Virus record (IMG/VR): IMGVR_UViG_2737471818_000001
Strand: one strand, 5' to 3'
DNA length: 32,870 nt
Origin: a virus
Lineage: Duplodnaviria > Heunggongvirae > Uroviricota > Caudoviricetes
Part shown: piece by piece, positions 4,872 through 32,870 of the stretch
Layout: the number at the start of each line of letters is the position of its first letter
Numbering within the stretch: the first letter of the stretch is position 1
Position numbers and translations under genes: made by a program
The notes under the pieces: generated by a model
What the model was told of the DNA's origin: nothing
Databases searched by the model: none
What the model saw: the letters and a program-made list of their open reading frames with translations, nothing else

Positions 4872-5342
4872 GATGGTTTCCGCTTCGTTGCAGCGCCTTG
4901 TCGCGCCATGTCAGGAGCTCGGTCACACTCAGGGAATGTAACTCTGATGGCGGCCAGTGGAAAATCACCGCGATATCCGCCATCAGGTCATCGACCGACA
5001 GGTTTTTCGGAAAGGTCAGCGACCCGAAGCAGGCGACAAAAAACCGACCACCTTCCCGGCCAGCGAAATCAGATCAGACGCATCGAGACGCGTGACCTCG
5101 TGCTCAGTCAGGGCGGGATACGTCATGCGCGGCAGCACTTTAATCAGCGCATCAACGTCAGAATTCGCCAGCGAGGCCAGCGACACCCCGCGCAGGGTTC
5201 CGGCATTCGGTTTGGTCAGCGTGACCTGTTCAATTTTCTGCTCACCGCGCATCAGTGGGGTGTCAAAAATCACCACATTCGGATTGACGGTTTCAGTGTC
5301 AGTAACGGCAGTTTCATTGATATTTTTCATGGGTATTCTCAT
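4861..5342 (-). CDS. E': E+E' fusion product made by a programmed -1 frameshift at TTTTTTG (5037-5043)
   Basis: Slippery heptamer lies in the E frame (GGT TTT TTG); the -1 frame continues ...FHWPPSELHSLSVTELLTWRDKALQRSGNHHEQ to a TAA at 4861-4863 overlapping the T start, the P2 E/E' arrangement. Confidence 0.65.
5016..5342 (-). CDS. E: Tail assembly chaperone E (zero-frame product); start at 5342 or the internal ATG at 5330
   Basis: MKNINETAVTDTETVNPNVVIFDTPLMRGEQKIEQVTL resembles P2 gpE as recalled; sits directly upstream of T. Confidence 0.8.
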   Translation of the reverse strand: MRIPMKNINETAVTDTETVNPNVVIFDTPLMRGEQKIEQVTLTKPNAGTLRGVSLASLANSDVDALIKVLPRMTYPALTEHEVTRLDASDLISLAGKVVGFLSPASGR

Positions 5343-5383
5343 CAGGAAAAGTGACCGGCCAGCCTCACTGACCGGGTAAGGGA

Positions 5384-5902
5384 TTACAGGCCAATCGCCC
5401 GGCGGTGCTCCGCCAGACGGTCGACGCCGTCGACTTTCAGCACCATGTTAACGACGTCAATCTCGATGACTTCGCGGCCATCAATCGTGAGCTGGTAATA
5501 GGCACACTCAGTCGACATTTTGGTCGTGCCGCTTTCGCCCTGCTTGTTCTCACCGCCGTCATACTCTTTGTGACGGCCACGCATCACCACCTCGACGGCA
5601 GAAATCGCGCCGGTGTCATCACGCTGGAAAGAGCCGGTAAAGCGCAGCGGCACGCTGTCAGCCCCCGGCGAGGCATACTGCGCCCACAGCTCAACGTCGG
5701 GCAGACCGCCGAGCGTCCACTCCAGCGACAGCGCATCGTCATCGAGGCCGAGGTCAATCGACACCGCGCCCGGCATTCCACCGCCGCGATATTTCTCCAG
5801 CTTGCGGGTCAGCTTTGGCAGGGTGACGGACTCAACGACGCCCATGTAGCTGAGGCCATCGTTGAACATATTCAGATATTTAAGTTTGCGGGGTAACGCC
5901 AT
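5384..5902 (-). CDS. FII: Tail tube protein FII, 172 aa
   Basis: Similarity to P2 gpFII as recalled; position between FI and E. Confidence 0.9.
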   Translation of the reverse strand: MALPRKLKYLNMFNDGLSYMGVVESVTLPKLTRKLEKYRGGGMPGAVSIDLGLDDDALSLEWTLGGLPDVELWAQYASPGADSVPLRFTGSFQRDDTGAISAVEVVMRGRHKEYDGGENKQGESGTTKMSTECAYYQLTIDGREVIEIDVVNMVLKVDGVDRLAEHRRAIGL

Positions 5903-12094: not shown

Positions 12095-12429
12095 GGGGAA
12101 AGGATGCCGCCGGGGAAGGCCAGCGGCAATCGGGCGGGGTTTTGTGGGGGTTGAAACAACAACCAACAACCCAGAAAAACTATTTCCTAATTGCTCAATG
12201 CTTATAAGTAATTATCCAAATCCTTCCATAAGCCCCACTTACAAGCCAACAATGAACATCGTTACCACAAGTAACTTTTTGTGACCCCCTATCCAGTTAA
12301 AATAGCGCAGAATAAAGCATAAAAATTGAAACTATGGATAACCACATTGGAAAGATTTATACTTGTTAATATGTTAACCATTTGAAACCACTGCAGTTCA
12401 AACTTCTGAAAAGGAGCAATTTTCAACCT

Positions 12430-13359
12430 ATGGAAGTAACATTAAGCTTGAAAGATATTACGTCAATTATTGCAATAATCATCTCTCTTATTGCATTATA
12501 TTTTGCCGTAAGTAATTATAGGCGAAAATCCGGCACTCATATAAGAGGTCAATTTTGTATAAGTGAAAGTATAAACGCTGAAGACAAATACATCAGCAGT
12601 ATTACTTTGGAAAATTTCAAAGACAAATCCGTTATAATTTTCAAGATCTTCCTAAGAGTTGGAAGTAACTATTACATAGAGATTGATGACTTCGAGCGAG
12701 CCCCAAAAATACTAAAACCGTATGAATCCTATACTAATAACTACGACCCCGTGGATTTTTACTGTTTAAACATGAATCGTATTAATCTTAACAAACTTTT
12801 GAATTCAAAAAAAACAAAGATTAATATTGTGCTATCCACCTCTCATGGTAAGTATGTGGTAAAAGAATGGATAAATCTGTGGGATCCCATATATGATTTT
12901 TTCAAAAACCATATGACAGCTTATATCATCCCAATGACACCCATTGAAAAGGTGGGGTATTTTGGCTATAATTTCAAATACTTAGTCAAATTAAAAACTG
13001 AGGATGGATATAAAGAAACCATTCCAATTTATTCTAGTGACATTAATTACCCCAGGTTTAATAAATTTAGACTAACAGTGGAGTCACTTTCATCACGTGA
13101 AAAACTTGAAGACTTCCTAATAAATCAGATGATAATCGGAAATCTTAAATGTACTGATATTGAAGTTATCGACGCTGAACAACTAAGAAAAAGAAGTTAT
13201 CACCACGAATTTAAAGAAGAATATGAAGCAAAGCACTATAGTCTATTTTTCTATTTAGTTATTGGGAGACTATTAACCGTCTTTAGCAACATCAGGCTTC
13301 ACTTCATCAACCTCAAAAACAAAAAAAAGAGAAAACAATCCAACAATACAGACAGATAA
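12430..13359 (+). CDS. Low-GC cargo protein, 309 aa, with an N-terminal transmembrane anchor; function unknown
   Basis: ATG at 12430 preceded by AAGGAG (12411-12416); hydrophobic helix ITSIIAIIISLIALYFAV; Lys/Asn-rich; strongly AT-rich relative to flanking V and S; opposite strand to the late operons. Confidence 0.7.
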   Translation: MEVTLSLKDITSIIAIIISLIALYFAVSNYRRKSGTHIRGQFCISESINAEDKYISSITLENFKDKSVIIFKIFLRVGSNYYIEIDDFERAPKILKPYESYTNNYDPVDFYCLNMNRINLNKLLNSKKTKINIVLSTSHGKYVVKEWINLWDPIYDFFKNHMTAYIIPMTPIEKVGYFGYNFKYLVKLKTEDGYKETIPIYSSDINYPRFNKFRLTVESLSSREKLEDFLINQMIIGNLKCTDIEVIDAEQLRKRSYHHEFKEEYEAKHYSLFFYLVIGRLLTVFSNIRLHFINLKNKKKRKQSNNTDR

Positions 13360-22151: not shown

Positions 22152-23264
22152 TTAACCAACCCTTGCTTTTTTATATGGACCACAACTCCAACTAAAGAAA
22201 TTCTTACCTAACTTATACCATTTATCAGAAAGCACTGGTGTTAGGTGAGGATTATATTTTTTTAAACTTCCCTTTTGTATATATTTCAATGTATTACTGA
22301 GCAAATTCTCTCCAAAACCATCATAACTTACACAAGCAGTGTTGCAGCTACAGCGTTTTGATTCGATATACTCACAATCATATTTTATATCAAGCTTCTT
22401 TAATATCGGACGCCAATATGCACCATGTTTTCGATCGAGTTCAAGGGCTGTTTTAAAATCAAAACCTTTTTTATGGTCAATGTAAAATTTTACTGATTCA
22501 TCTACGGAGCAAAGATGCTTAAAGAAAATGAGAGATTTTTCTTTTTGTTGAAATTGACTTTGACTTCTTAATACATCTTCAATTGTCGATAAAGGAACTA
22601 GAGATTCTATTTCATGTACATCTAAAATCTCAACGAAACCTGAGCGAGTGATTTGTGAGCCCAAAAAATGTGAGCAAGTACCCCCGAATGGGGCTCTAGG
22701 ATGTTTTTTGTCATTATCCACAATACAAAAAACTATCTCATTATTTTGAATTGCACGCTCGAATACATCCTTAGTACTGCCCCCACCGCCATTTAGAGCG
22801 ATAAAACCCATTTCGCAGCGAGATAAGTTAATACCTTCGGCATAATGAGCCGCTATAACTCTAAAAAAATCAGAATCCAAAGGATTTTCACATACTATTT
22901 TCGTTTTTTGCAATTGTGCCGAGTCATTAAAATACAATGGACCACAAACAAATTTAAAAGATTCACCGTTCTGAACCCATCTAAATGATTTATCACTAAT
23001 ATTAAAGTCGACAGATACATAAAATGAGACCTGGTTCAAGATAGCATAGTACTCTGTTAGACCCGACAAAGCCTCTTGCGCGTAACTTTTTGATGAAAGG
23101 CTATAAAGCCCGCTTTGATCATTGATAATAGTTTTAAAAAAAACCCTTGCCCCTATAACCAAGTGTTTTTGTTCAGCAAATGCCCGAAGTATATTCTCAA
23201 CCGCTATGGCAAATGAATTATTTAGCACCTTCTCAGGTGTCGCATTTTCGATATGAATCAACAT
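22152..23264 (-). CDS. Cargo protein, 370 aa, uncharacterized partner of the upstream ATPase; possible nuclease-like effector
   Basis: ATG 2 nt after the ATPase stop; low GC; hydrophobic strand followed by acidic motif IVFCIVDNDKK; glycine-rich LNGGGGST; C-terminal Cys cluster CSCNTAC...WSCGP. Confidence 0.75.
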   Translation of the reverse strand: MLIHIENATPEKVLNNSFAIAVENILRAFAEQKHLVIGARVFFKTIINDQSGLYSLSSKSYAQEALSGLTEYYAILNQVSFYVSVDFNISDKSFRWVQNGESFKFVCGPLYFNDSAQLQKTKIVCENPLDSDFFRVIAAHYAEGINLSRCEMGFIALNGGGGSTKDVFERAIQNNEIVFCIVDNDKKHPRAPFGGTCSHFLGSQITRSGFVEILDVHEIESLVPLSTIEDVLRSQSQFQQKEKSLIFFKHLCSVDESVKFYIDHKKGFDFKTALELDRKHGAYWRPILKKLDIKYDCEYIESKRCSCNTACVSYDGFGENLLSNTLKYIQKGSLKKYNPHLTPVLSDKWYKLGKNFFSWSCGPYKKARVG

Positions 23265-23266
23265 AA

Positions 23267-24823
23267 CTACTTACCAGAGAAAAAGCCAACCGGCCAATTT
23301 TGTAGGAAACCATTCTCGTCAAAATAAGATTTCTTAACTATGGTCTGCTGCTTTTCATCTTTTTCAAATACCAGTATTGAAATATCATCCTGTGAAAGAT
23401 TTTCATTTTCCTCAATATATTCACCAAGTGCTTCAATCATGGTCTGGCTATGTGTCTCAAAAATTATCTTCAAATCCACATTGTTTTCTTTTGCTTTAGT
23501 TACTACTTTTGCAAAAATACTTGCTAAATTATGTTGATATGACGGATGTAAATGCAATTCTGGCTGCTCAATGATAAATGTTATAGGTTTTCTAACCGTG
23601 GTAGCACGACGTTCTGTCTCAAGCCAAATGGCTGTAACTATCGGCAAAACCTGAGAGTAACCAAACCCCATATCACTAACATTATAGTTCTCACTATTTT
23701 CACCGGTATTTATTAAAATTGCAAAGTGAGAGCCACTTTGTTCAACCTTAATAATGAAATCAAAATTTAACTTTGTCCAATCTTCAAATTTTGATTTATC
23801 AGCCGGCCTTAATGAATTCAAAAGCATTGCAAGATTGGAACCAGTATGATCTATCTCATTAACCTGTAAATCTTGAAAGCGATAAAATCTTTCTGATGTA
23901 GCACGCAGTGGAGCTATGTACTTTACATTTCTGAATGAATCTGACAAGGATGTATTTATTATATCTATAAGATTATTAATATTCCATCCAATTATAAATG
24001 GATATAACTCATTCATTATTTCATCATGTTGAAGTTCAAAGTTTCTACTAAAAACTTTTTGTTCCTTGAATAGAAAAGCAACTAATTTACTAGCGTACGC
24101 TTTGGGTATAAAGCCAATTCTTTTGAATGCCTCTGTCACTTGATTTATATCAGATTTAGTATGGAAATATTTCTTTATATATTTCGCTGCTGAATCAATA
24201 AATGACAATTCTAATGCCCTGTCATGCCTAGAATGTCTCAAATAGAATGATGTGCTTGGAGGAGGACTATCTTCCTTACCCTTCAAAATTAGATTGGGTA
24301 TGAACTGCCCAAGATTTTTAGCTATTATCCCATCACGCTCTATTGTTTTATCATCTGATTCAATGAGTAACTTAACATTACTGTTCTCATCCATTGAAAT
24401 AAATATTGTTAAATCAGCCAATATAAGCTTAATCGTTTTTGTTTTTGTTTTTTTATCTTTAGAGTAAACAGTCAACTCTGCTTCAACATCTGTTGGTTGC
24501 TTTGCTAAATCAGTAAAACGATAATATGTATATCTTTGTGAAACCTCTGGCGGAATTGAGAGTGAAAAACTGAACGTAATTTCTTTTTTTTCAGAGTTTC
24601 GGGAAAGTACATCTGTAAAATCGCCAAAATCCACATATCGCCCATACCATAGTATTGGACCAGTAGTATTTTCTTCTACAGATTGACGAAGTAAAGGAAA
24701 TGTACGCAATAGGGAACTTTTACCACTGCTGTTCTTACCAACAAATACTGTAATTGGTTTTAAATCAATAAAAGTTTTGTTGACAAAGCTCCTGAAGTTT
24801 TGAAGACCTATACCCTTAATCAT
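23267..24823 (-). CDS. Cargo OLD/ABC-type ATPase (AAA_15/AAA_21-like), about 518 aa from the ATG at 24823
   Basis: Walker A VFVGKNSSGKSSLL; Walker B/D-loop FIIEQPELHLHPSYQ; H-loop ETHSQ; long insert between them. The track ORF extends to a TTG at 24895 that overlaps the cos-like site; the GGAG-preceded ATG at 24821-24823 is the likelier start. Confidence 0.8.
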   Translation of the reverse strand: MIKGIGLQNFRSFVNKTFIDLKPITVFVGKNSSGKSSLLRTFPLLRQSVEENTTGPILWYGRYVDFGDFTDVLSRNSEKKEITFSFSLSIPPEVSQRYTYYRFTDLAKQPTDVEAELTVYSKDKKTKTKTIKLILADLTIFISMDENSNVKLLIESDDKTIERDGIIAKNLGQFIPNLILKGKEDSPPPSTSFYLRHSRHDRALELSFIDSAAKYIKKYFHTKSDINQVTEAFKRIGFIPKAYASKLVAFLFKEQKVFSRNFELQHDEIMNELYPFIIGWNINNLIDIINTSLSDSFRNVKYIAPLRATSERFYRFQDLQVNEIDHTGSNLAMLLNSLRPADKSKFEDWTKLNFDFIIKVEQSGSHFAILINTGENSENYNVSDMGFGYSQVLPIVTAIWLETERRATTVRKPITFIIEQPELHLHPSYQHNLASIFAKVVTKAKENNVDLKIIFETHSQTMIEALGEYIEENENLSQDDISILVFEKDEKQQTIVKKSYFDENGFLQNWPVGFFSGK

Positions 24824-24894
24824 TCCTAGCTCCATTAGTTCAATAAAATCAATCGATTTTGAGACAATCTTAATATCTTTGACAGGCGCGCGCA

Positions 24895-24913
24895 ATGCTA
24901 TCCCCGCCTCGCC
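24895..24913. other. Candidate cos site (cohesive-end sequence)
   Basis: Minus-strand read GGCGAGGCGGGGATAGCAT matches the P2/186 19-nt cohesive end as recalled at about 17 of 19 positions and in the expected orientation between the A side and the Q side. Confidence 0.55.
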
Positions 24914-29038: not shown

Positions 29039-29539
29039 TTAATGCAAATATTGCTCAGGCTTGACCGATGTTAATATCGTCGGCGCATACTCAAACAGGC
29101 TAAACAACTCACGTAAAGCACGAAATAAATTTTCACGCCAATAACATAATTCTTCATTAATACGCCAGTAAGGCTGATTAAATTCAACCTCACTTAACCC
29201 TGCATGTAAAAACAAAGACCGCCGTTGGCTAACCGTTAGAAAACTAATATATGCAGACTCACTTGAGCCAACCTGACGACGTTTAGAAAATGCAGCACGC
29301 AATTCATCGATAGCGCACACCAGACGCTCCCGGTCTACATCATTCATTTCTTCGAGACGCATCGTTGCGTGGCGCTGTTTTAACTGTGCGTGGAAGCAAA
29401 CAGTCAGCCGATCACGCTCCATCATTTGATTGTAAAAATCACAGCTATCCTGCCAGCGGGGCGCTGCAAGATATTTACCAATCAGGCTACGCAATCCTTC
29501 TGGCTGTTTGTCCACAATGGCAAGGGTCATAACCGTCAT
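29039..29539 (-). CDS. B: Replication protein B, 166 aa
   Basis: Similarity to P2 gpB as recalled (MTV.TLAIVDK.PEGLR.LIGKYLAAP); position between cox and A. Confidence 0.85.
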   Translation of the reverse strand: MTVMTLAIVDKQPEGLRSLIGKYLAAPRWQDSCDFYNQMMERDRLTVCFHAQLKQRHATMRLEEMNDVDRERLVCAIDELRAAFSKRRQVGSSESAYISFLTVSQRRSLFLHAGLSEVEFNQPYWRINEELCYWRENLFRALRELFSLFEYAPTILTSVKPEQYLH

Positions 29540-29706
29540 AACGATAGCCCTCTGGATTTTATGAAGCGTTTAGCCATGGCAAAAAATCCCGGCTTACGGG
29601 TGCGGATGATGATGCCTTTACGTCCCTTACCATGAGTAATATTGAACGCCATAGGCTGGGGACTTTCCTTACGAAGTAGCTGAGCAATACAACGTGGTTC
29701 TTGCAT
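29536..29706 (-). CDS. Small early protein, about 56 aa from MQEPRCIAQ
   Basis: ATG at 29704-29706 preceded by a strong GGAGG site; ATGA overlap with the B start. The longer track ORF begins at TTG. Confidence 0.55.
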   Translation of the reverse strand: MQEPRCIAQLLRKESPQPMAFNITHGKGRKGIIIRTRKPGFFAMAKRFIKSRGLSL

Positions 29707-29805
29707 AAATCCTCCATTAAGTAGCCGGGTTTTGTCCATGCCCGGCACATGGTCTTGTGGTAGGATTGAATCGCCAAAAACAACTCCACCACTAAGAGGT
29801 AAAAA

Positions 29806-29997
29806 GTGAACAATCAAAAACTTAATGAATTAATTACCACTCTTGAACAAGCCGTAGCATTAATTGAGTCTCTACCAACCCCAATGGGTGACGTGGAAAA
29901 ATCGAATCAAGTCGATGTATTGACAATTAAGTTAAGAGAATTAGCTCACTCAAAAAAACCAAATCATCTTCAAGGGTTTATTGATATAAACCACTAA
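29806..29997 (+). CDS. Small counter-oriented protein, 63 aa, GTG start, low GC
   Basis: AGAGG ribosome-binding site 7 nt upstream of the GTG; fits the gap between two minus-strand genes; predicted helical (NELITTLEQAVALIESL). Confidence 0.45.
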   Translation: MNNQKLNELITTLEQAVALIESLPTPMGDVEKSNQVDVLTIKLRELAHSKKPNHLQGFIDINH

Positions 29998-30413
29998 GCG
30001 TCTAATTCATGTGGTACGGCTTTTTGGGAACGATGCGGCCGTACCATCACATTAAAAATGTCATCCCAATCGTCCTTGCTCATTAGCGTAATTCCTAGCT
30101 CTCGCGCCTTTTCTCTCACACAGCGCGCCAGATATAAACGATTATCAATACTTATCCCTATAGCCCTTTCTTTCATGCGGCCGTAGTTATCAGAAAGAAG
30201 CTGTATCAAGTCAAGGCGTAGTATTTCCACTGAGCCATCAGTGCTGCGAAAAACTAAATCATCGCCATCAATAAACACTGGTTCACTTTTGATCTCTTCG
30301 CTATTCACCCACTTACGCAGACTTCGTGGAATAACAAGACTATTAGAAAGTGTCATTTCGTCTAATTCACCACGGAATAAAGCTACTTTTATGGTTTTCG
30401 ACTGATGTTCCAT
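29994..30413 (-). CDS. Early-operon accessory protein, 139 aa, downstream of cox; function unknown
   Basis: ATG preceded by a strong G-rich ribosome-binding site (AAGGGGGGGAG); GC lower than the backbone. Confidence 0.7.
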   Translation of the reverse strand: MEHQSKTIKVALFRGELDEMTLSNSLVIPRSLRKWVNSEEIKSEPVFIDGDDLVFRSTDGSVEILRLDLIQLLSDNYGRMKERAIGISIDNRLYLARCVREKARELGITLMSKDDWDDIFNVMVRPHRSQKAVPHELDA

Positions 30414-30477
30414 TTCTCCCCCCTTATGCCGACTGGTCAGCTAGCCATTCACCAACTGAGCGATGTATTTCAACCGG

Positions 30478-30747
30478 TTAAGACCCTAAGCCCAACCACA
30501 TTAGCCACCCTTCCCTAATCGCTTTCGGACGGCTTTCATATGCAAGTTTCATTCCGTTGTTCCAGGCAGGGAGATAGACCCAATACTCTCCAGCACGGCC
30601 AGACGCTGACTGAGGATCTGTCATTTCAATTACTGGCAATTTTCCCTTATCAATCATTCCCTTTACGGCACGCTCCGATTTGCCAATCAGTCTTGCAAAC
30701 TCCTGATATGGCACTGCCTCTGTTTGTAACGCGATTTGCTTCGCCAT
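30478..30747 (-). CDS. cox: Cox (excisionase and repressor of the lysogenic promoter), 89 aa
   Basis: Close similarity to P2 Cox as recalled (...PYQEFARLIGKSERAVKGMIDKGKLPVIEMTDPQSASGRAGEYWVYLPAWNNG...). Confidence 0.9.
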   Translation of the reverse strand: MAKQIALQTEAVPYQEFARLIGKSERAVKGMIDKGKLPVIEMTDPQSASGRAGEYWVYLPAWNNGMKLAYESRPKAIREGWLMWLGLGS

Positions 30748-30812
30748 GATAAAGACCCCTCAAACATTTAAGAATCGCTTCTAATGTCTTATAGTGACTA
30801 ATTGTGTGCATT

Positions 30813-30863
30813 TCTAAACACAAAACTATCTACATCTAAACTGAATGGTATTGAGATCTAAAC
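30813..30863. promoter_or_regulatory. Immunity switch: three direct repeats of TCTAAAC at 22-bp spacing between cox and C; candidate C-repressor operators
   Basis: TCTAAAC at 30813-30819, 30835-30841 and 30857-30863, inside the 119-bp divergent cox-C intergenic region. Confidence 0.55.
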
Positions 30864-30866
30864 ACT

Positions 30867-31166
30867 ATGTCAAACGCGTTAAATGAAAAACTTGTACTCA
30901 TACGCAAGTCTGAATATCTAAGCAGGCAGCAACTTGCTGATTTAACAGGAATTCCTTACGGAACCTTAAGCTATTACGAAAGTGGGCGTTCGACCCCCCC
31001 CACAGATGTGATGATGAAAATTTTGAAGATGCCTCAGTTCATGAAATACACACTTTGGTTCATGACTGACCAAATTTCTCCTGAATCCGGGCAGATTGCA
31101 CCGGCACTCGCACACTTTGGGCAAGAAACAACAAACTCGCAGCACTCAGACCAAAAGACTGGTTAA
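30867..31166 (+). CDS. C: Immunity repressor C, 99 aa
   Basis: Close similarity to P2 C as recalled (MSN...EK.VLMRKSEYLSRQQLADLTG.PYGTLSYYESGRSTPPTDVMM...). Confidence 0.9.
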   Translation: MSNALNEKLVLIRKSEYLSRQQLADLTGIPYGTLSYYESGRSTPPTDVMMKILKMPQFMKYTLWFMTDQISPESGQIAPALAHFGQETTNSQHSDQKTG

Positions 31167-31280: not shown

Positions 31281-32288
31281 ATGACAATTAAGAAGCTCGA
31301 TGATGGTCGATACGAAGTGGACGTTAGACCTGCAGGGCGCAACGGAAAGCGCATCCGCAGGAAATTTGACAAGAAAAGTGAGGCTGTAGCTTTTGAGAAA
31401 CACACTCAATACAACCATCACGATAAAGAATGGCTGGCTAAACCGACAGATAAGCGGCATCTGTCTGAGTTAACAAAAGTCTGGTGGGATCTGAAAGGTA
31501 AGCATGAAGAACACGGAAAATCCAATTTGGGTAAGATTGAAATATTTACTCGGATCACTGATGACCCTTGCGCATTCCAGATAACCAAAGCGCTTATTAG
31601 CCAGTACAGCATGACTCGCAGAGGGCAAGGCATAAAACCGGCCAGTATAAACCGCGACCTTACCTGCCTGAGTGGCATGTTTACTGCACTAATTGATGCG
31701 GAGTTGTTTTTTGGTGAACATCCTTTCAGAGGTATGAAAAAGCTCAAGGAGCAGAAACCAGAAACCGGATATCTGACGCAGGAAGAAATAACATTGTTGC
31801 TTGCCAATCTTGACGGGGACAACAAGAAAATCGCGATTCTCTGTCTAAGTACCGGCGCTCGATGGGGTGAAGCTGCGAAACTGAAAGCTGAGAACGTAAT
31901 ACAGAATCGGGTGACGTTCGTTAAAACAAAGACAAACAAACCGCGCACTGTCCCTATCTCTGAGGAAGTAGCTGTAATGATTGCGGGTAAGGGTTATCTG
32001 TTCCCTGATGCCTCATACCCGAAGTTCAGGCGAACAATGAAAGATGTAAAACCGGATCTACCGGACGGGCAAGCAACTCACGCATTGCGTCACAGTTTTG
32101 CTACCCACTTTATGATTAACGGCGGGAGTATCATCACCTTGCAGAGAATACTGGGACATTCACGAATAGAGCAGACAATGGTCTATGCGCACTTTGCCCC
32201 GGAGTATCTTCAAGATGCTGTTTCCCTCAATCCGCTACGTGGTGGTGTTGACTCCCAGAGTGTCCACATAATGTCCACGCTGGAGTGA
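31281..32288 (+). CDS. int: Tyrosine integrase, 335 aa
   Basis: Close similarity to P2 Int as recalled, including C-terminal HALRHSFATHFM...LGHSRIEQTMVYAHF; GGAGG ribosome-binding site. Confidence 0.9.
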   Translation: MTIKKLDDGRYEVDVRPAGRNGKRIRRKFDKKSEAVAFEKHTQYNHHDKEWLAKPTDKRHLSELTKVWWDLKGKHEEHGKSNLGKIEIFTRITDDPCAFQITKALISQYSMTRRGQGIKPASINRDLTCLSGMFTALIDAELFFGEHPFRGMKKLKEQKPETGYLTQEEITLLLANLDGDNKKIAILCLSTGARWGEAAKLKAENVIQNRVTFVKTKTNKPRTVPISEEVAVMIAGKGYLFPDASYPKFRRTMKDVKPDLPDGQATHALRHSFATHFMINGGSIITLQRILGHSRIEQTMVYAHFAPEYLQDAVSLNPLRGGVDSQSVHIMSTLE

Positions 32289-32552: not shown

Positions 32553-32870
32553 TCACTCTCCACATTTGAATGTCAGACGAGCGACGCCATGTAATCCTGC
32601 ACCTTCTGTCTTCAGGTCAACTATCTGCATTTTTTTGCCCTGAGTAACACAGAAATGGGCTGCATCATTTTTTACTATATTTTCTGCACCAGATATTCTG
32701 CCCCTGGCTAAAGAAGCTTCGGCTTCGGTGTAGTATTGGTTATCGAGTTTACGCTGAATATTACTTTTATATGCAAGACCAAATTTACCGATACTTGTCT
32801 CATCATTATGCACAGCACAACCAGACATAATAAAAATACTAATTAATGATATAGCAGCTATCTTTTTCAT
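32553..32870 (-). CDS. Putative lipoprotein, 105 aa, outside the prophage on the int side
   Basis: Signal peptide with a lipobox-like ...FIMSGC; low GC; start codon at the last three bases of the window. Confidence 0.5.
   Translation of the reverse strand: MKKIAAISLISIFIMSGCAVHNDETSIGKFGLAYKSNIQRKLDNQYYTEAEASLARGRISGAENIVKNDAAHFCVTQGKKMQIVDLKTEGAGLHGVARLTFKCGE

What the first reader, a model, noticed from the sequence alone, without database searches (positions are those of the whole stretch)
29994..30413. 139-aa accessory gene directly downstream of cox in the early operon
P2 has only a small orf78 between cox and B, and 186-type phages carry different regulators there (cII, fil, dhr). Here a 139-aa protein with a very strong ribosome-binding site and lower GC occupies that position. 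Early-expressed accessory genes at this locus typically act in host takeover, lysogeny regulation or counter-defence; the sequence shows no obvious motif.
Basis: partly seen in the sequence, partly recalled or inferred. Interest (0 to 1): 0.4.

Follow-up and report, generated by a model that had tools for sequence, protein, structure and literature searches.

The report
Convergent two-gene cassette after prophage cox
The 139-aa gene is real, has no known relatives of known function, and always comes with an overlooked 63-aa gene on the opposite strand; the pair sits in a variable slot of P2/186-like prophages marked by a conserved promoter-like DNA element, and its function is still unknown.

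Summary
The ORF at 29994-30413 (minus strand, 139 aa) is a real gene under purifying selection. It is the second gene of the early operon of a P2-like E. coli prophage, directly after cox. It has no match in Pfam, PHROGs, NCBIfam, PADLOC, PDB sequences, 50,697 phage records or two structure libraries. Its family has only about 20 clusters, all in Enterobacterales P2-like prophages.

- The orf78 homologue is still present (29536-29706).
- The rest of the ~770-bp insertion is a conserved 63-aa gene on the opposite strand (29806-29997), whose end overlaps the 139-aa gene by 4 nt. It accompanies a 139-family gene in every locus examined.
- Upstream of the 63-aa gene lies a ~45-bp element (core 29736-29762) conserved across Enterobacterales. 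It reads as an extended -10 promoter next to a hairpin.

Seventy-two of the 75 loci carrying the element have a reverse gene next to it, and 67 also have a convergent forward gene. These pairs fall into many unrelated families. The C-terminal modules of the forward proteins track the family of the reverse gene.

My best inference (about 0.35) is a lysogen-expressed small protein paired with an early-lytic cognate partner, possibly exclusion with self-immunity. No function has been shown.

The parts
29994..30413 (-). F139: 139-aa early-operon gene, the finding. Soluble, pI 5.6. The model shows an N-terminal beta-rich part (about residues 8-66) and C-terminal helices.
30414..30425 (-). Purine-rich Shine-Dalgarno region AAGGGGGGAGAA directly before the F139 start codon
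   Evidence: read from the sequence
29806..29997 (+). R63: 63-aa gene convergent with F139. GTG start; its end overlaps F139 by 4 nt. The protein is conserved across genera (45-52% identity; dN/dS 0.08-0.50 where estimable).
29794..29799 (+). AAGAGG Shine-Dalgarno of R63, 6 nt before the GTG
29758..29766 (+). Putative extended -10 promoter of R63 (TGgTAGGAT). Conserved GCC at 29773-29775 is the putative transcription start.
   Evidence: the T at hexamer position 6 is kept in 48/48 unique sequences, and GCC 7-9 nt downstream in 43-45/48, both outside the searched pattern. Not detected by the -35/-10 scan because there is no -35.
29736..29762 (-). 27-nt core of the conserved element (TACCACAAGACCATGTGCCGGGCATGG). 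Single copy in the window.
29721..29748 (+). Hairpin GCCGGG(U)-loop-(G)CCCGGC just upstream of the putative -10. The stem is kept while the loop length varies. There is one compensatory change in Yersinia ruckeri (GCCGA/TCGGC). It pairs better on the strand of R63 because of G-U pairs.
29707..30477 (.). Whole insertion relative to P2, where cox and orf78 are 10 nt apart
30478..30747 (-). cox, first gene of the early operon
29536..29706 (-). orf78 homologue (56 aa), retained downstream of the cassette
30845..30873 (-). Pe-like early promoter (TTGACA-17-TACCAT)
   Evidence: position as in P2
30768..30795 (+). Pc-like promoter for C and int, face to face with Pe
29039..29539 (-). Replication gene B homologue
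   Evidence: PF26815 in homologous loci

Best explanation
F139 and the opposite-strand R63 are one two-gene accessory module. It was inserted, together with a conserved promoter/hairpin element, between cox and orf78 of a P2-like prophage.

Shown:
- F139 is the second gene of the Pe early operon, so it can only be made when the C repressor is off.
- R63 points against that operon and has its own conserved upstream element.
- The two genes overlap at their ends and always occur together.
- The same element marks a recurrent variable slot in P2/186-like prophages, and 67 of 75 loci carry a forward-plus-reverse gene pair there.

Inferred:
- R63 is transcribed from the extended -10 promoter in the lysogen, when the early operon is silent.
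- On derepression, transcription from Pe runs head-on into the R63 promoter, and F139 is made.
- F139 acts on R63 or on R63's target by protein-protein contact. The pair would then behave as a lysogen-state effector (candidate exclusion factor against incoming P2-like or other phages) with an early-lytic cognate neutraliser that lets the resident phage develop, i.e. self-immunity.
For: - Co-occurrence: every locus examined, starting from either protein, has cox, a 136-154-aa F139-family gene and a convergent 62-64-aa R63-family gene overlapping by 4-23 nt. These loci come from E. coli, Citrobacter, Salmonella, Yersinia and metagenomes.
- Both families are tiny and confined to this slot.
- Both are under purifying selection.
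- R63 keeps its partner even when the partner has diverged to 32% identity while R63 stays at 68%.
- Element: it was found in 65 viral contigs and 10 species-representative genomes. It lies a median 68 nt (range 40-192) upstream of a reverse ORF in 72 of 75 loci, 67 of which also have a convergent forward ORF.
- Promoter signature: TGnTAnnnT is kept although the inner hexamer bases vary.
- Forward proteins are mosaics whose C-terminal modules track the reverse-gene family. Examples are the Kluyvera 216-aa protein (F139-like part plus C4 module, paired with a different reverse family), C2 with Rfam1, and C7 with Rfam6. This argues for coupling at the protein level.
- One reverse family is a two-transmembrane protein with a weak SLATT match (E 2e-3), a domain typical of abortive-infection effectors.
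- No terminator-like site separates the two genes, so the transcripts should overlap.
Against: - No expression data. The promoter is inferred from conservation only, and the standard -35/-10 scan does not call it.
- No evidence of physical contact. No complex could be modelled, and there are too few sequences for a co-evolution analysis.
- R63 itself has no effector-like feature: 63 aa, soluble, helical by eye.
- The F139-like module occurs once without R63 (Kluyvera), so F139 has, or can have, a function independent of R63.
- The link between forward C-terminal modules and reverse genes could simply reflect recombination breakpoints inside the forward gene.
- The direction of antagonism is not determined. 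Exclusion activity is only an analogy with other prophage hotspots.
Confidence: 0.35

Rival explanations
1. Reverse polarity: F139 is a Fil/Dhr-like early host-takeover or lysis-promoting effector. R63 is its dedicated inhibitor, made in the lysogen to buffer leaky early transcription. This would be a toxin-antitoxin logic split between the lytic and lysogenic programmes.
For: - F139 sits where 186 has fil and dhr.
- R63 was never found without an F139-family partner, whereas the F139 module occurs once without R63. That fits a dedicated inhibitor that is useless alone.
- In the mosaics, C-terminal modules could be handles through which a reverse protein controls any N-terminal effector.
Against: - F139 has no similarity to Fil, Dhr or any toxin family.
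- Some reverse families are 150-160 aa proteins, one of them a SLATT-like two-transmembrane protein. These look like effectors rather than antidotes.
- A cell that has entered the lytic cycle needs no protection.
Confidence: 0.25
2. No functional coupling: F139 is an independent early accessory gene. R63 with its promoter is an inverted moron that landed next to it, and the pairing reflects shared descent and tight packing.
For: - Morons with their own promoters inserted antisense to lytic operons are common (Owen et al. 2020, PMC7067206).
- The hotspot shows frequent recombination.
- Identities of F and R are discordant between lineages, so they recombine apart.
Against: - Co-occurrence persists across about 32-100% partner identity and several genera despite that recombination.
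- Unrelated cassettes repeat the same convergent end-to-end layout.
- In-frame C-terminal modules of forward proteins follow the reverse family.
- There is no terminator of its own, as a classical moron would have.
Confidence: 0.15
3. Mainly regulatory at the RNA level: the conserved leftward promoter fires against Pe. By transcriptional interference or antisense pairing across F139 and cox, and possibly by read-through into C and int, it tunes the lysis-lysogeny switch, as 186 pE or lambda oop do. The encoded proteins would be secondary.
For: - The promoter-like element is the best-conserved sequence of the locus.
- No terminator-like site lies between R63 and C.
- 186 has a leftward establishment promoter, pE, just downstream of apl.
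- The hairpin shows one compensatory change.
Against: - R63 and the other reverse ORFs are conserved as proteins under purifying selection, which a purely RNA role does not explain.
- P2 and 186 do without the element.
- The cargo is hypervariable, unlike a core regulatory circuit.
Confidence: 0.15
4. F139 is an AbrB/MazE-like DNA-binding regulator or antitoxin.
For: By eye, residues 20-57 (SNSLVIPRSLRKW...FIDGDDLVFRS) align without gaps to the AbrB N-terminal motif as I recall it. The predicted beta-beta-(alpha)-beta-beta order fits.
Against: - No SpoVT_AbrB hit, even with fragments at E up to 10.
- The Pro and Arg of the motif are lost in divergent members.
- The protein is acidic.
Confidence: 0.05

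Closest known systems
Phage 186 early accessory genes fil and dhr, and P2 orf78
   Same: Same place in the genome: non-essential small genes of the early lytic operon between the excisionase/Cox gene and the replication genes.
   Different: No sequence similarity. fil, dhr and orf78 all run with the operon and have no opposite-strand partner. orf78 is present here as well. Neither 186 nor P2 has the conserved element.
Variable hotspots of P2-like prophages: gpA-gpQ (old/tin) and the tail-gene locus (Rousset et al. 2022, PMC9122126), and the minor 'integrase-primase' hotspot noted in PMC13586616 (2026)
   Same: A short slot between conserved phage genes with high turnover of unrelated cargo. 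The window also carries an ATPase-type defence candidate in the gpA-gpQ slot.
   Different: - The slot is inside the early operon.
- It is bounded on one side by a ~45-bp conserved promoter/hairpin element.
- Its cargo is nearly always a convergent forward/reverse pair of small ORFan proteins.
- No known defence system was recognised in it, apart from one weak SLATT match.
- The papers do not resolve or describe this locus.
Prophage defence with cognate self-immunity (BstA/aba; P22 sieB/esc). This comparison is from my own knowledge.
   Same: Proposed logic only: a factor made in the lysogen that would also hit the resident phage, plus a phage-encoded way to neutralise it during its own lytic cycle.
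   Different: No homology. Here the neutraliser would be a separate early protein encoded convergently. Nothing has been tested.
Toxin-antitoxin pairs (type II; type I with convergent antisense)
   Same: Strictly co-occurring adjacent small genes. The gene ends overlap as in some type I systems.
   Different: The genes are not a co-directional autoregulated operon. The opposite-strand partner is a conserved protein, not an RNA. There is no known toxin or antitoxin domain.
Leftward promoters inside early operons: 186 pE, lambda oop/pO, P22 sar
   Same: A promoter downstream of the first early gene(s) that fires against the lytic promoter (for oop).
   Different: Here it drives diverse protein-coding cargo. 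It has no known activator site and is absent from the model phages.

Membership tests
P2 Orf78 family (phrog_273) | Sequence match to Orf78 | tested here: not met
   F139 has no PHROG hit and no BLASTP hit to P2 Orf78. The neighbouring ORF at 29536-29706 is the Orf78 homologue (E 6e-23; phrog_273 E 1e-28).
186 CII / Fil / Dhr | Sequence similarity to the 186 proteins | tested here: not met
   BLASTP gave only E>1 noise hits, and there was no Pfam or PHROG match.
186 CII / Fil / Dhr | Position in the early operon after the excisionase gene | tested here: met
   F139 starts 64 nt after cox, on the same strand, with no terminator between them.
SpoVT/AbrB-MazE domain | Match to the Pfam domain model | tested here: not met
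   No hit for 16 full-length members or for 7 N-terminal fragments at E up to 10.
SpoVT/AbrB-MazE domain | Swapped-hairpin beta-barrel fold | tested here: inconclusive
Type II toxin-antitoxin | Two adjacent genes that always occur together | tested here: met
Type II toxin-antitoxin | Co-directional operon under one autoregulated promoter | tested here: not met
   The genes are convergent with a 4-nt overlap at their ends.
Type II toxin-antitoxin | Growth inhibition by one partner, relieved by the other | not testable with these tools
   Needs expression experiments.
Type I toxin-antitoxin / antisense RNA | The opposite-strand partner is a non-coding RNA | tested here: not met
   R63 is conserved as a protein at 45-52% identity across genera, with dN/dS 0.08-0.50 where estimable.
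Known anti-phage defence systems (PADLOC 2.0) | Match of either protein to a defence-system model | tested here: not met
   No hit at E up to 1.
Moron (promoter + gene + terminator inserted in a phage operon) | Own promoter | tested here: inconclusive
   A conserved extended -10 signature is present, but there are no expression data.
Moron (promoter + gene + terminator inserted in a phage operon) | Own terminator | tested here: not met
   No terminator-like site in 29400-31000. The R63 stop overlaps the F139 stop.
Prophage variable hotspot | Fixed slot between conserved genes with high turnover of unrelated cargo | tested here: met
   Among 75 loci carrying the element there are at least 17 reverse-gene families and 20 forward N-terminal families.
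Prophage variable hotspot | Cargo provides phage defence | not testable with these tools
   The only indication is a weak SLATT match for one reverse family.

The most novel reading that the evidence does not exclude
The 45-bp element defines a previously undescribed hotspot inside the early operon of P2/186-like prophages across the Enterobacterales. It would act as a conserved expression platform (promoter, hairpin and shared Shine-Dalgarno context) into which dozens of unrelated reverse genes are plugged. Each reverse gene would be matched by a cognate module in a convergent early-lytic protein. The F139/R63 pair would be one member of a new class of two-protein systems: a lysogen-state effector plus an early-lytic neutraliser, i.e. 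phage exclusion with built-in self-immunity, made of protein families with no known relatives.
Probability: 0.25. Interest if true: 0.8.

Novelty: new variant of a known kind. Interest (0 to 1): 0.55.

Why it matters
P2-like prophages are a major reservoir of anti-phage systems, but attention has focused on the gpA-gpQ and tail-gene hotspots. If the cox/orf78 slot is a third, differently built hotspot, it offers three things:
- A simple sequence handle (the 27-nt core) for harvesting many uncharacterised gene pairs.
- A natural example of genes wired to opposite sides of the lysis-lysogeny switch by convergent transcription.
- A set of small ORFan proteins, several families of 60-200 aa, whose partner specificity appears to be encoded in swappable modules.

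For this window specifically, the result turns an isolated hypothetical gene into a testable two-gene unit with a predicted promoter.

Tried and rejected
- Profile searches of F139 and R63 against Pfam, PHROGs, NCBIfam and PADLOC: nothing.
- PDB sequence searches, single sequence and profile: only a chance 15-bit hit to Vps25.
- tblastn against 50,697 phage records with F139, the 154-aa variant and R63: no match.
- Exhaustive profile search of 1.8 billion representatives: one more true relative and one spurious ferredoxin-repeat hit.
- A third homologue search with a divergent profile: still only 20 clusters.
- The AbrB/MazE idea was rejected, as described under rival explanations.
- Rfam: no family at the element or anywhere nearby.
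- The element is not related to tR1 of 186 or to the P2 terminator after B. It is absent from P2 and 186.
- hhalign found no link between F139 and the forward proteins of other cassettes. It gave only a weak link (probability 28-38%) between R63 and other ~60-aa reverse families.
- Literature searches for the locus, for the RefSeq protein accessions and for a cox-proximal hotspot found nothing specific.

Full report
**Where we are.** The window is a P2-like prophage of E. coli. It is 100% identical over the tested stretch to strains EC11 and HYM1, and it is integrated next to yegR-yegS. On the minus strand the early operon reads:
- Pe-like promoter (30873-30845)
- cox (30478-30747)
- the 139-aa ORF (29994-30413)
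- an orf78 homologue (29536-29706)
- B (29039-29539)
- DUF2732 and DUF5405 genes, then A

C (30867-31166) and int (31281-32288) lie on the plus strand, behind a Pc-like promoter that faces Pe as in P2.

- The ORF has an ATG start directly preceded by AAGGGGGGAGAA. It begins 64 nt after cox, with no promoter-like or terminator-like site between them.
- Its GC content is 42.4% against 51.1% for the window, although the whole early region is low in GC.
- Homologues at 32-99% identity occupy the same position in E. coli, Citrobacter, Salmonella, Yersinia ruckeri, Kluyvera and metagenomic contigs.
- Where synonymous divergence is not saturated, pairwise dN/dS is 0.08-0.48, so it is a real protein-coding gene.
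- P2 has only 10 nt between cox and orf78, and 186 has cII, fil and dhr at this place.

- orf78 is not replaced. A 56-aa homologue (67% identical to P2 Orf78) follows the insertion.
- The insertion relative to P2 (about 29707-30477) contains a second gene on the other strand, 29806-29997. It encodes 63 aa, has a GTG start and an AAGAGG ribosome-binding site, and its stop overlaps the stop of the 139-aa gene (4-nt ORF overlap). RefSeq annotates it as well.
- Its product is conserved at 45-52% identity between E. coli, Salmonella and Yersinia, with dN/dS 0.08-0.50 where estimable. Because only the stop codons overlap, this conservation is its own.

I call the two genes F139 (forward, with the early operon) and R63 (reverse).

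**The two genes always travel together.** Starting from F139 relatives or from R63 relatives, every locus shows cox, a 136-154-aa F139-family gene, and then a convergent 62-64-aa R63-family gene overlapping by 4-23 nt.
- Both families are tiny: 20 and 11 clusters at 90% identity among 5.8 billion. An exhaustive profile search of 1.8 billion representatives added only one true relative.
- The pairing survives strong divergence. The commoner E. coli variant P0033 (154 aa) is 32% identical to F139, while its partner is 68% identical to R63.
- The one exception is in Kluyvera and one metagenomic contig. There the F139-like protein carries a 77-aa C-terminal extension, and the reverse gene belongs to a different family.
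- The cassette is rare. Four of 5,426 complete E. coli genomes have the F139 form and four the 154-aa form. No isolated phage in 50,697 records has either protein.

**No known relative.**
- F139 and R63 have no match in Pfam, PHROGs, NCBIfam, PADLOC or PDB sequences, as single sequences or as profiles.
- They have no similarity to 186 CII, Fil or Dhr, or to P2 Orf78.
- AlphaFold2 with the widest allowed alignment gave a moderate model (pLDDT 62.6). It shows a beta-rich N-terminal part at about 76-81 and C-terminal helices.
- Both proteins are soluble and mildly acidic.
- An AbrB/MazE-like motif that I noticed by eye found no support in any of these tests. It is also not conserved in divergent members.

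**A conserved element and a hotspot.** Aligning the cassette between genera showed that the best-conserved stretch is non-coding. It is a block of about 50 nt between the R63 start and orf78.
- Its 27-nt core (29736-29762) is single copy in the window.
- The core occurs in 65 viral contigs and in 10 species-representative genomes: Escherichia albertii, Xenorhabdus, Pectobacterium, Pantoea, Brenneria, Erwinia, Izhakiella and Kosakonia. About 60 complete E. coli genomes match the stretch that spans the element and the start of orf78.
- It is absent from P2 and 186, and among isolated phages it is present in only a few.
- In 72 of 75 loci a reverse ORF starts a median 68 nt (range 40-192) to its left, and 67 of these also have a forward ORF converging on it. 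The two stops lie within a few nucleotides of each other or overlap by up to about 50 nt.
- The cassette plus element sits after cox, before cox (SEN4/5-like phages), after cII (186-like phages) or after other early genes. The element is always on the same side and in the same orientation.

**The element read on the R63 strand.** It is a hairpin followed by TTTTG-TGG-TAnnnT.
- The T at hexamer position 6 is invariant in 48 of 48 unique sequences, and a GCC lies 7-9 nt further on in 43-45 of 48. Both are outside the pattern I searched with. This is the signature of an extended -10 promoter with a fixed start site. The invariance of the TG and TA is by construction of the search.
- The hairpin stem is kept while the loop varies in length. 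It shows one compensatory change (Yersinia ruckeri), and it pairs better on the R63 strand.
- I cannot say what the hairpin does. It lies upstream of the putative start, so it may be a protein-binding site, an insulating terminator, or a structure in the early mRNA that reads through it.
- Many unrelated reverse genes also share the sequence just before their start codon, AACCACAAAGGAG-like. The platform seems conserved up to the start codon.

**Mosaic cargo.** The reverse proteins fall into at least 17 families.
- One group is ~60-aa helical proteins, including R63. hhalign links R63 to two other such families only weakly (probability 28-38%).
- Others include a 67-78-aa family, a 151-155-aa family and a ~160-aa two-transmembrane family. 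The last has a weak SLATT match (PADLOC E 2e-3) and weak similarity to a PHROG holin family (E 7e-4).
- The forward proteins are chimeras. Their N-terminal families recombine freely, but their C-terminal modules follow the reverse-gene family. For example, the C4 module occurs behind either the F139-like part or an unrelated N-terminus, each time with reverse family 4. C2 occurs behind three different N-termini, always with the 151-155-aa reverse family.
- None of these proteins has a known function.

**Interpretation.**
- Shown: gene reality, operon position, obligate convergent pairing, the conserved element, the hotspot and the modular co-variation.
- Inferred: R63 is transcribed from its own promoter while the early operon is repressed. 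F139 appears only on derepression, when transcription from Pe collides with the R63 promoter about 1 kb away. The two proteins act on each other.
- I favour a lysogen-state effector with an early-lytic cognate neutraliser, at about 0.35. The reasons are that the in-frame C-terminal modules track the reverse gene and that some reverse families look like membrane effectors.
- The reverse polarity (F139 as a Fil/Dhr-like effector, R63 as its buffer), mere neighbourhood, and a mainly RNA-level role in the lysis-lysogeny switch all remain open. My data do not fix the direction of antagonism.

**Relation to the literature.**
- Rousset et al. (PMC9122126) describe the gpA-gpQ hotspot.
- I found no description of the cox-proximal slot, of the element or of the convergent pairs.

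The kind of thing (a prophage accessory hotspot) is therefore known. This architecture and these protein families appear to be new.

**Verdict.** The finding is real and more interesting than a lone hypothetical gene, but its function is unknown. Interest is 0.55.

Noticed in passing
29721-29790 (core 29736-29762): Non-coding block conserved better than the flanking genes across the Enterobacterales. It consists of a hairpin plus an extended -10-like TGnTAnnnT and a conserved GCC. The purpose of the hairpin is unexplained.
   Followed up: yes
L013-L077 and window 29780-29805: Unrelated reverse genes share the sequence just upstream of their start codon (AACCACAAAGGAG-like). It is an inverted repeat of the TTTGTGGT in the element, so the early mRNA could fold across the antisense leader.
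   Followed up: partly
L024, L048, L052, L056, L068, L073: In some cassettes the reverse gene encodes a ~160-aa two-transmembrane protein with a weak SLATT match (PADLOC E 2e-3; phrog_6315). Its start lies 155-190 nt from the element, so there may be a second small reverse ORF in between.
   Followed up: partly
L007 (Kluyvera intermedia), 5001-5884: An F139-like protein is fused to a 77-aa C-terminal module. That module is otherwise found on an unrelated forward protein (L041). It is paired with that module's reverse-gene family instead of R63.
   Followed up: partly
L080-L082; P0033: A 154-aa variant, 32% identical to F139, is much more widespread than the form in the window (679 index blocks). 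It overlaps its 64-aa partner by 23 nt.
   Followed up: partly
22152-24895, minus strand: The slot between A and the portal gene (the old/tin position) holds a 542-aa ABC-type ATPase matching PADLOC NsnB, PDC-M55A and AriA models (E 7e-55 to 3e-31). Next to it is a 370-aa protein with no match. This is a candidate two-gene defence system.
   Followed up: no
12382-13359, plus strand: A 325-aa ORF lies on the opposite strand to the surrounding late genes and has no PADLOC match. It is possibly cargo of the tail-region variable locus.
   Followed up: no
32553-32870: The right end of the window is host DNA: yegR, then yegS in the matching genomes. The prophage is therefore integrated next to yegR.
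   Followed up: partly
L020, L026, L028, L038, L044, L053, L068 (SEN4/5-like phages): Here the forward/reverse cassette and the element lie between C and cox. An ORFan, not cox, is therefore the first early gene.
   Followed up: partly
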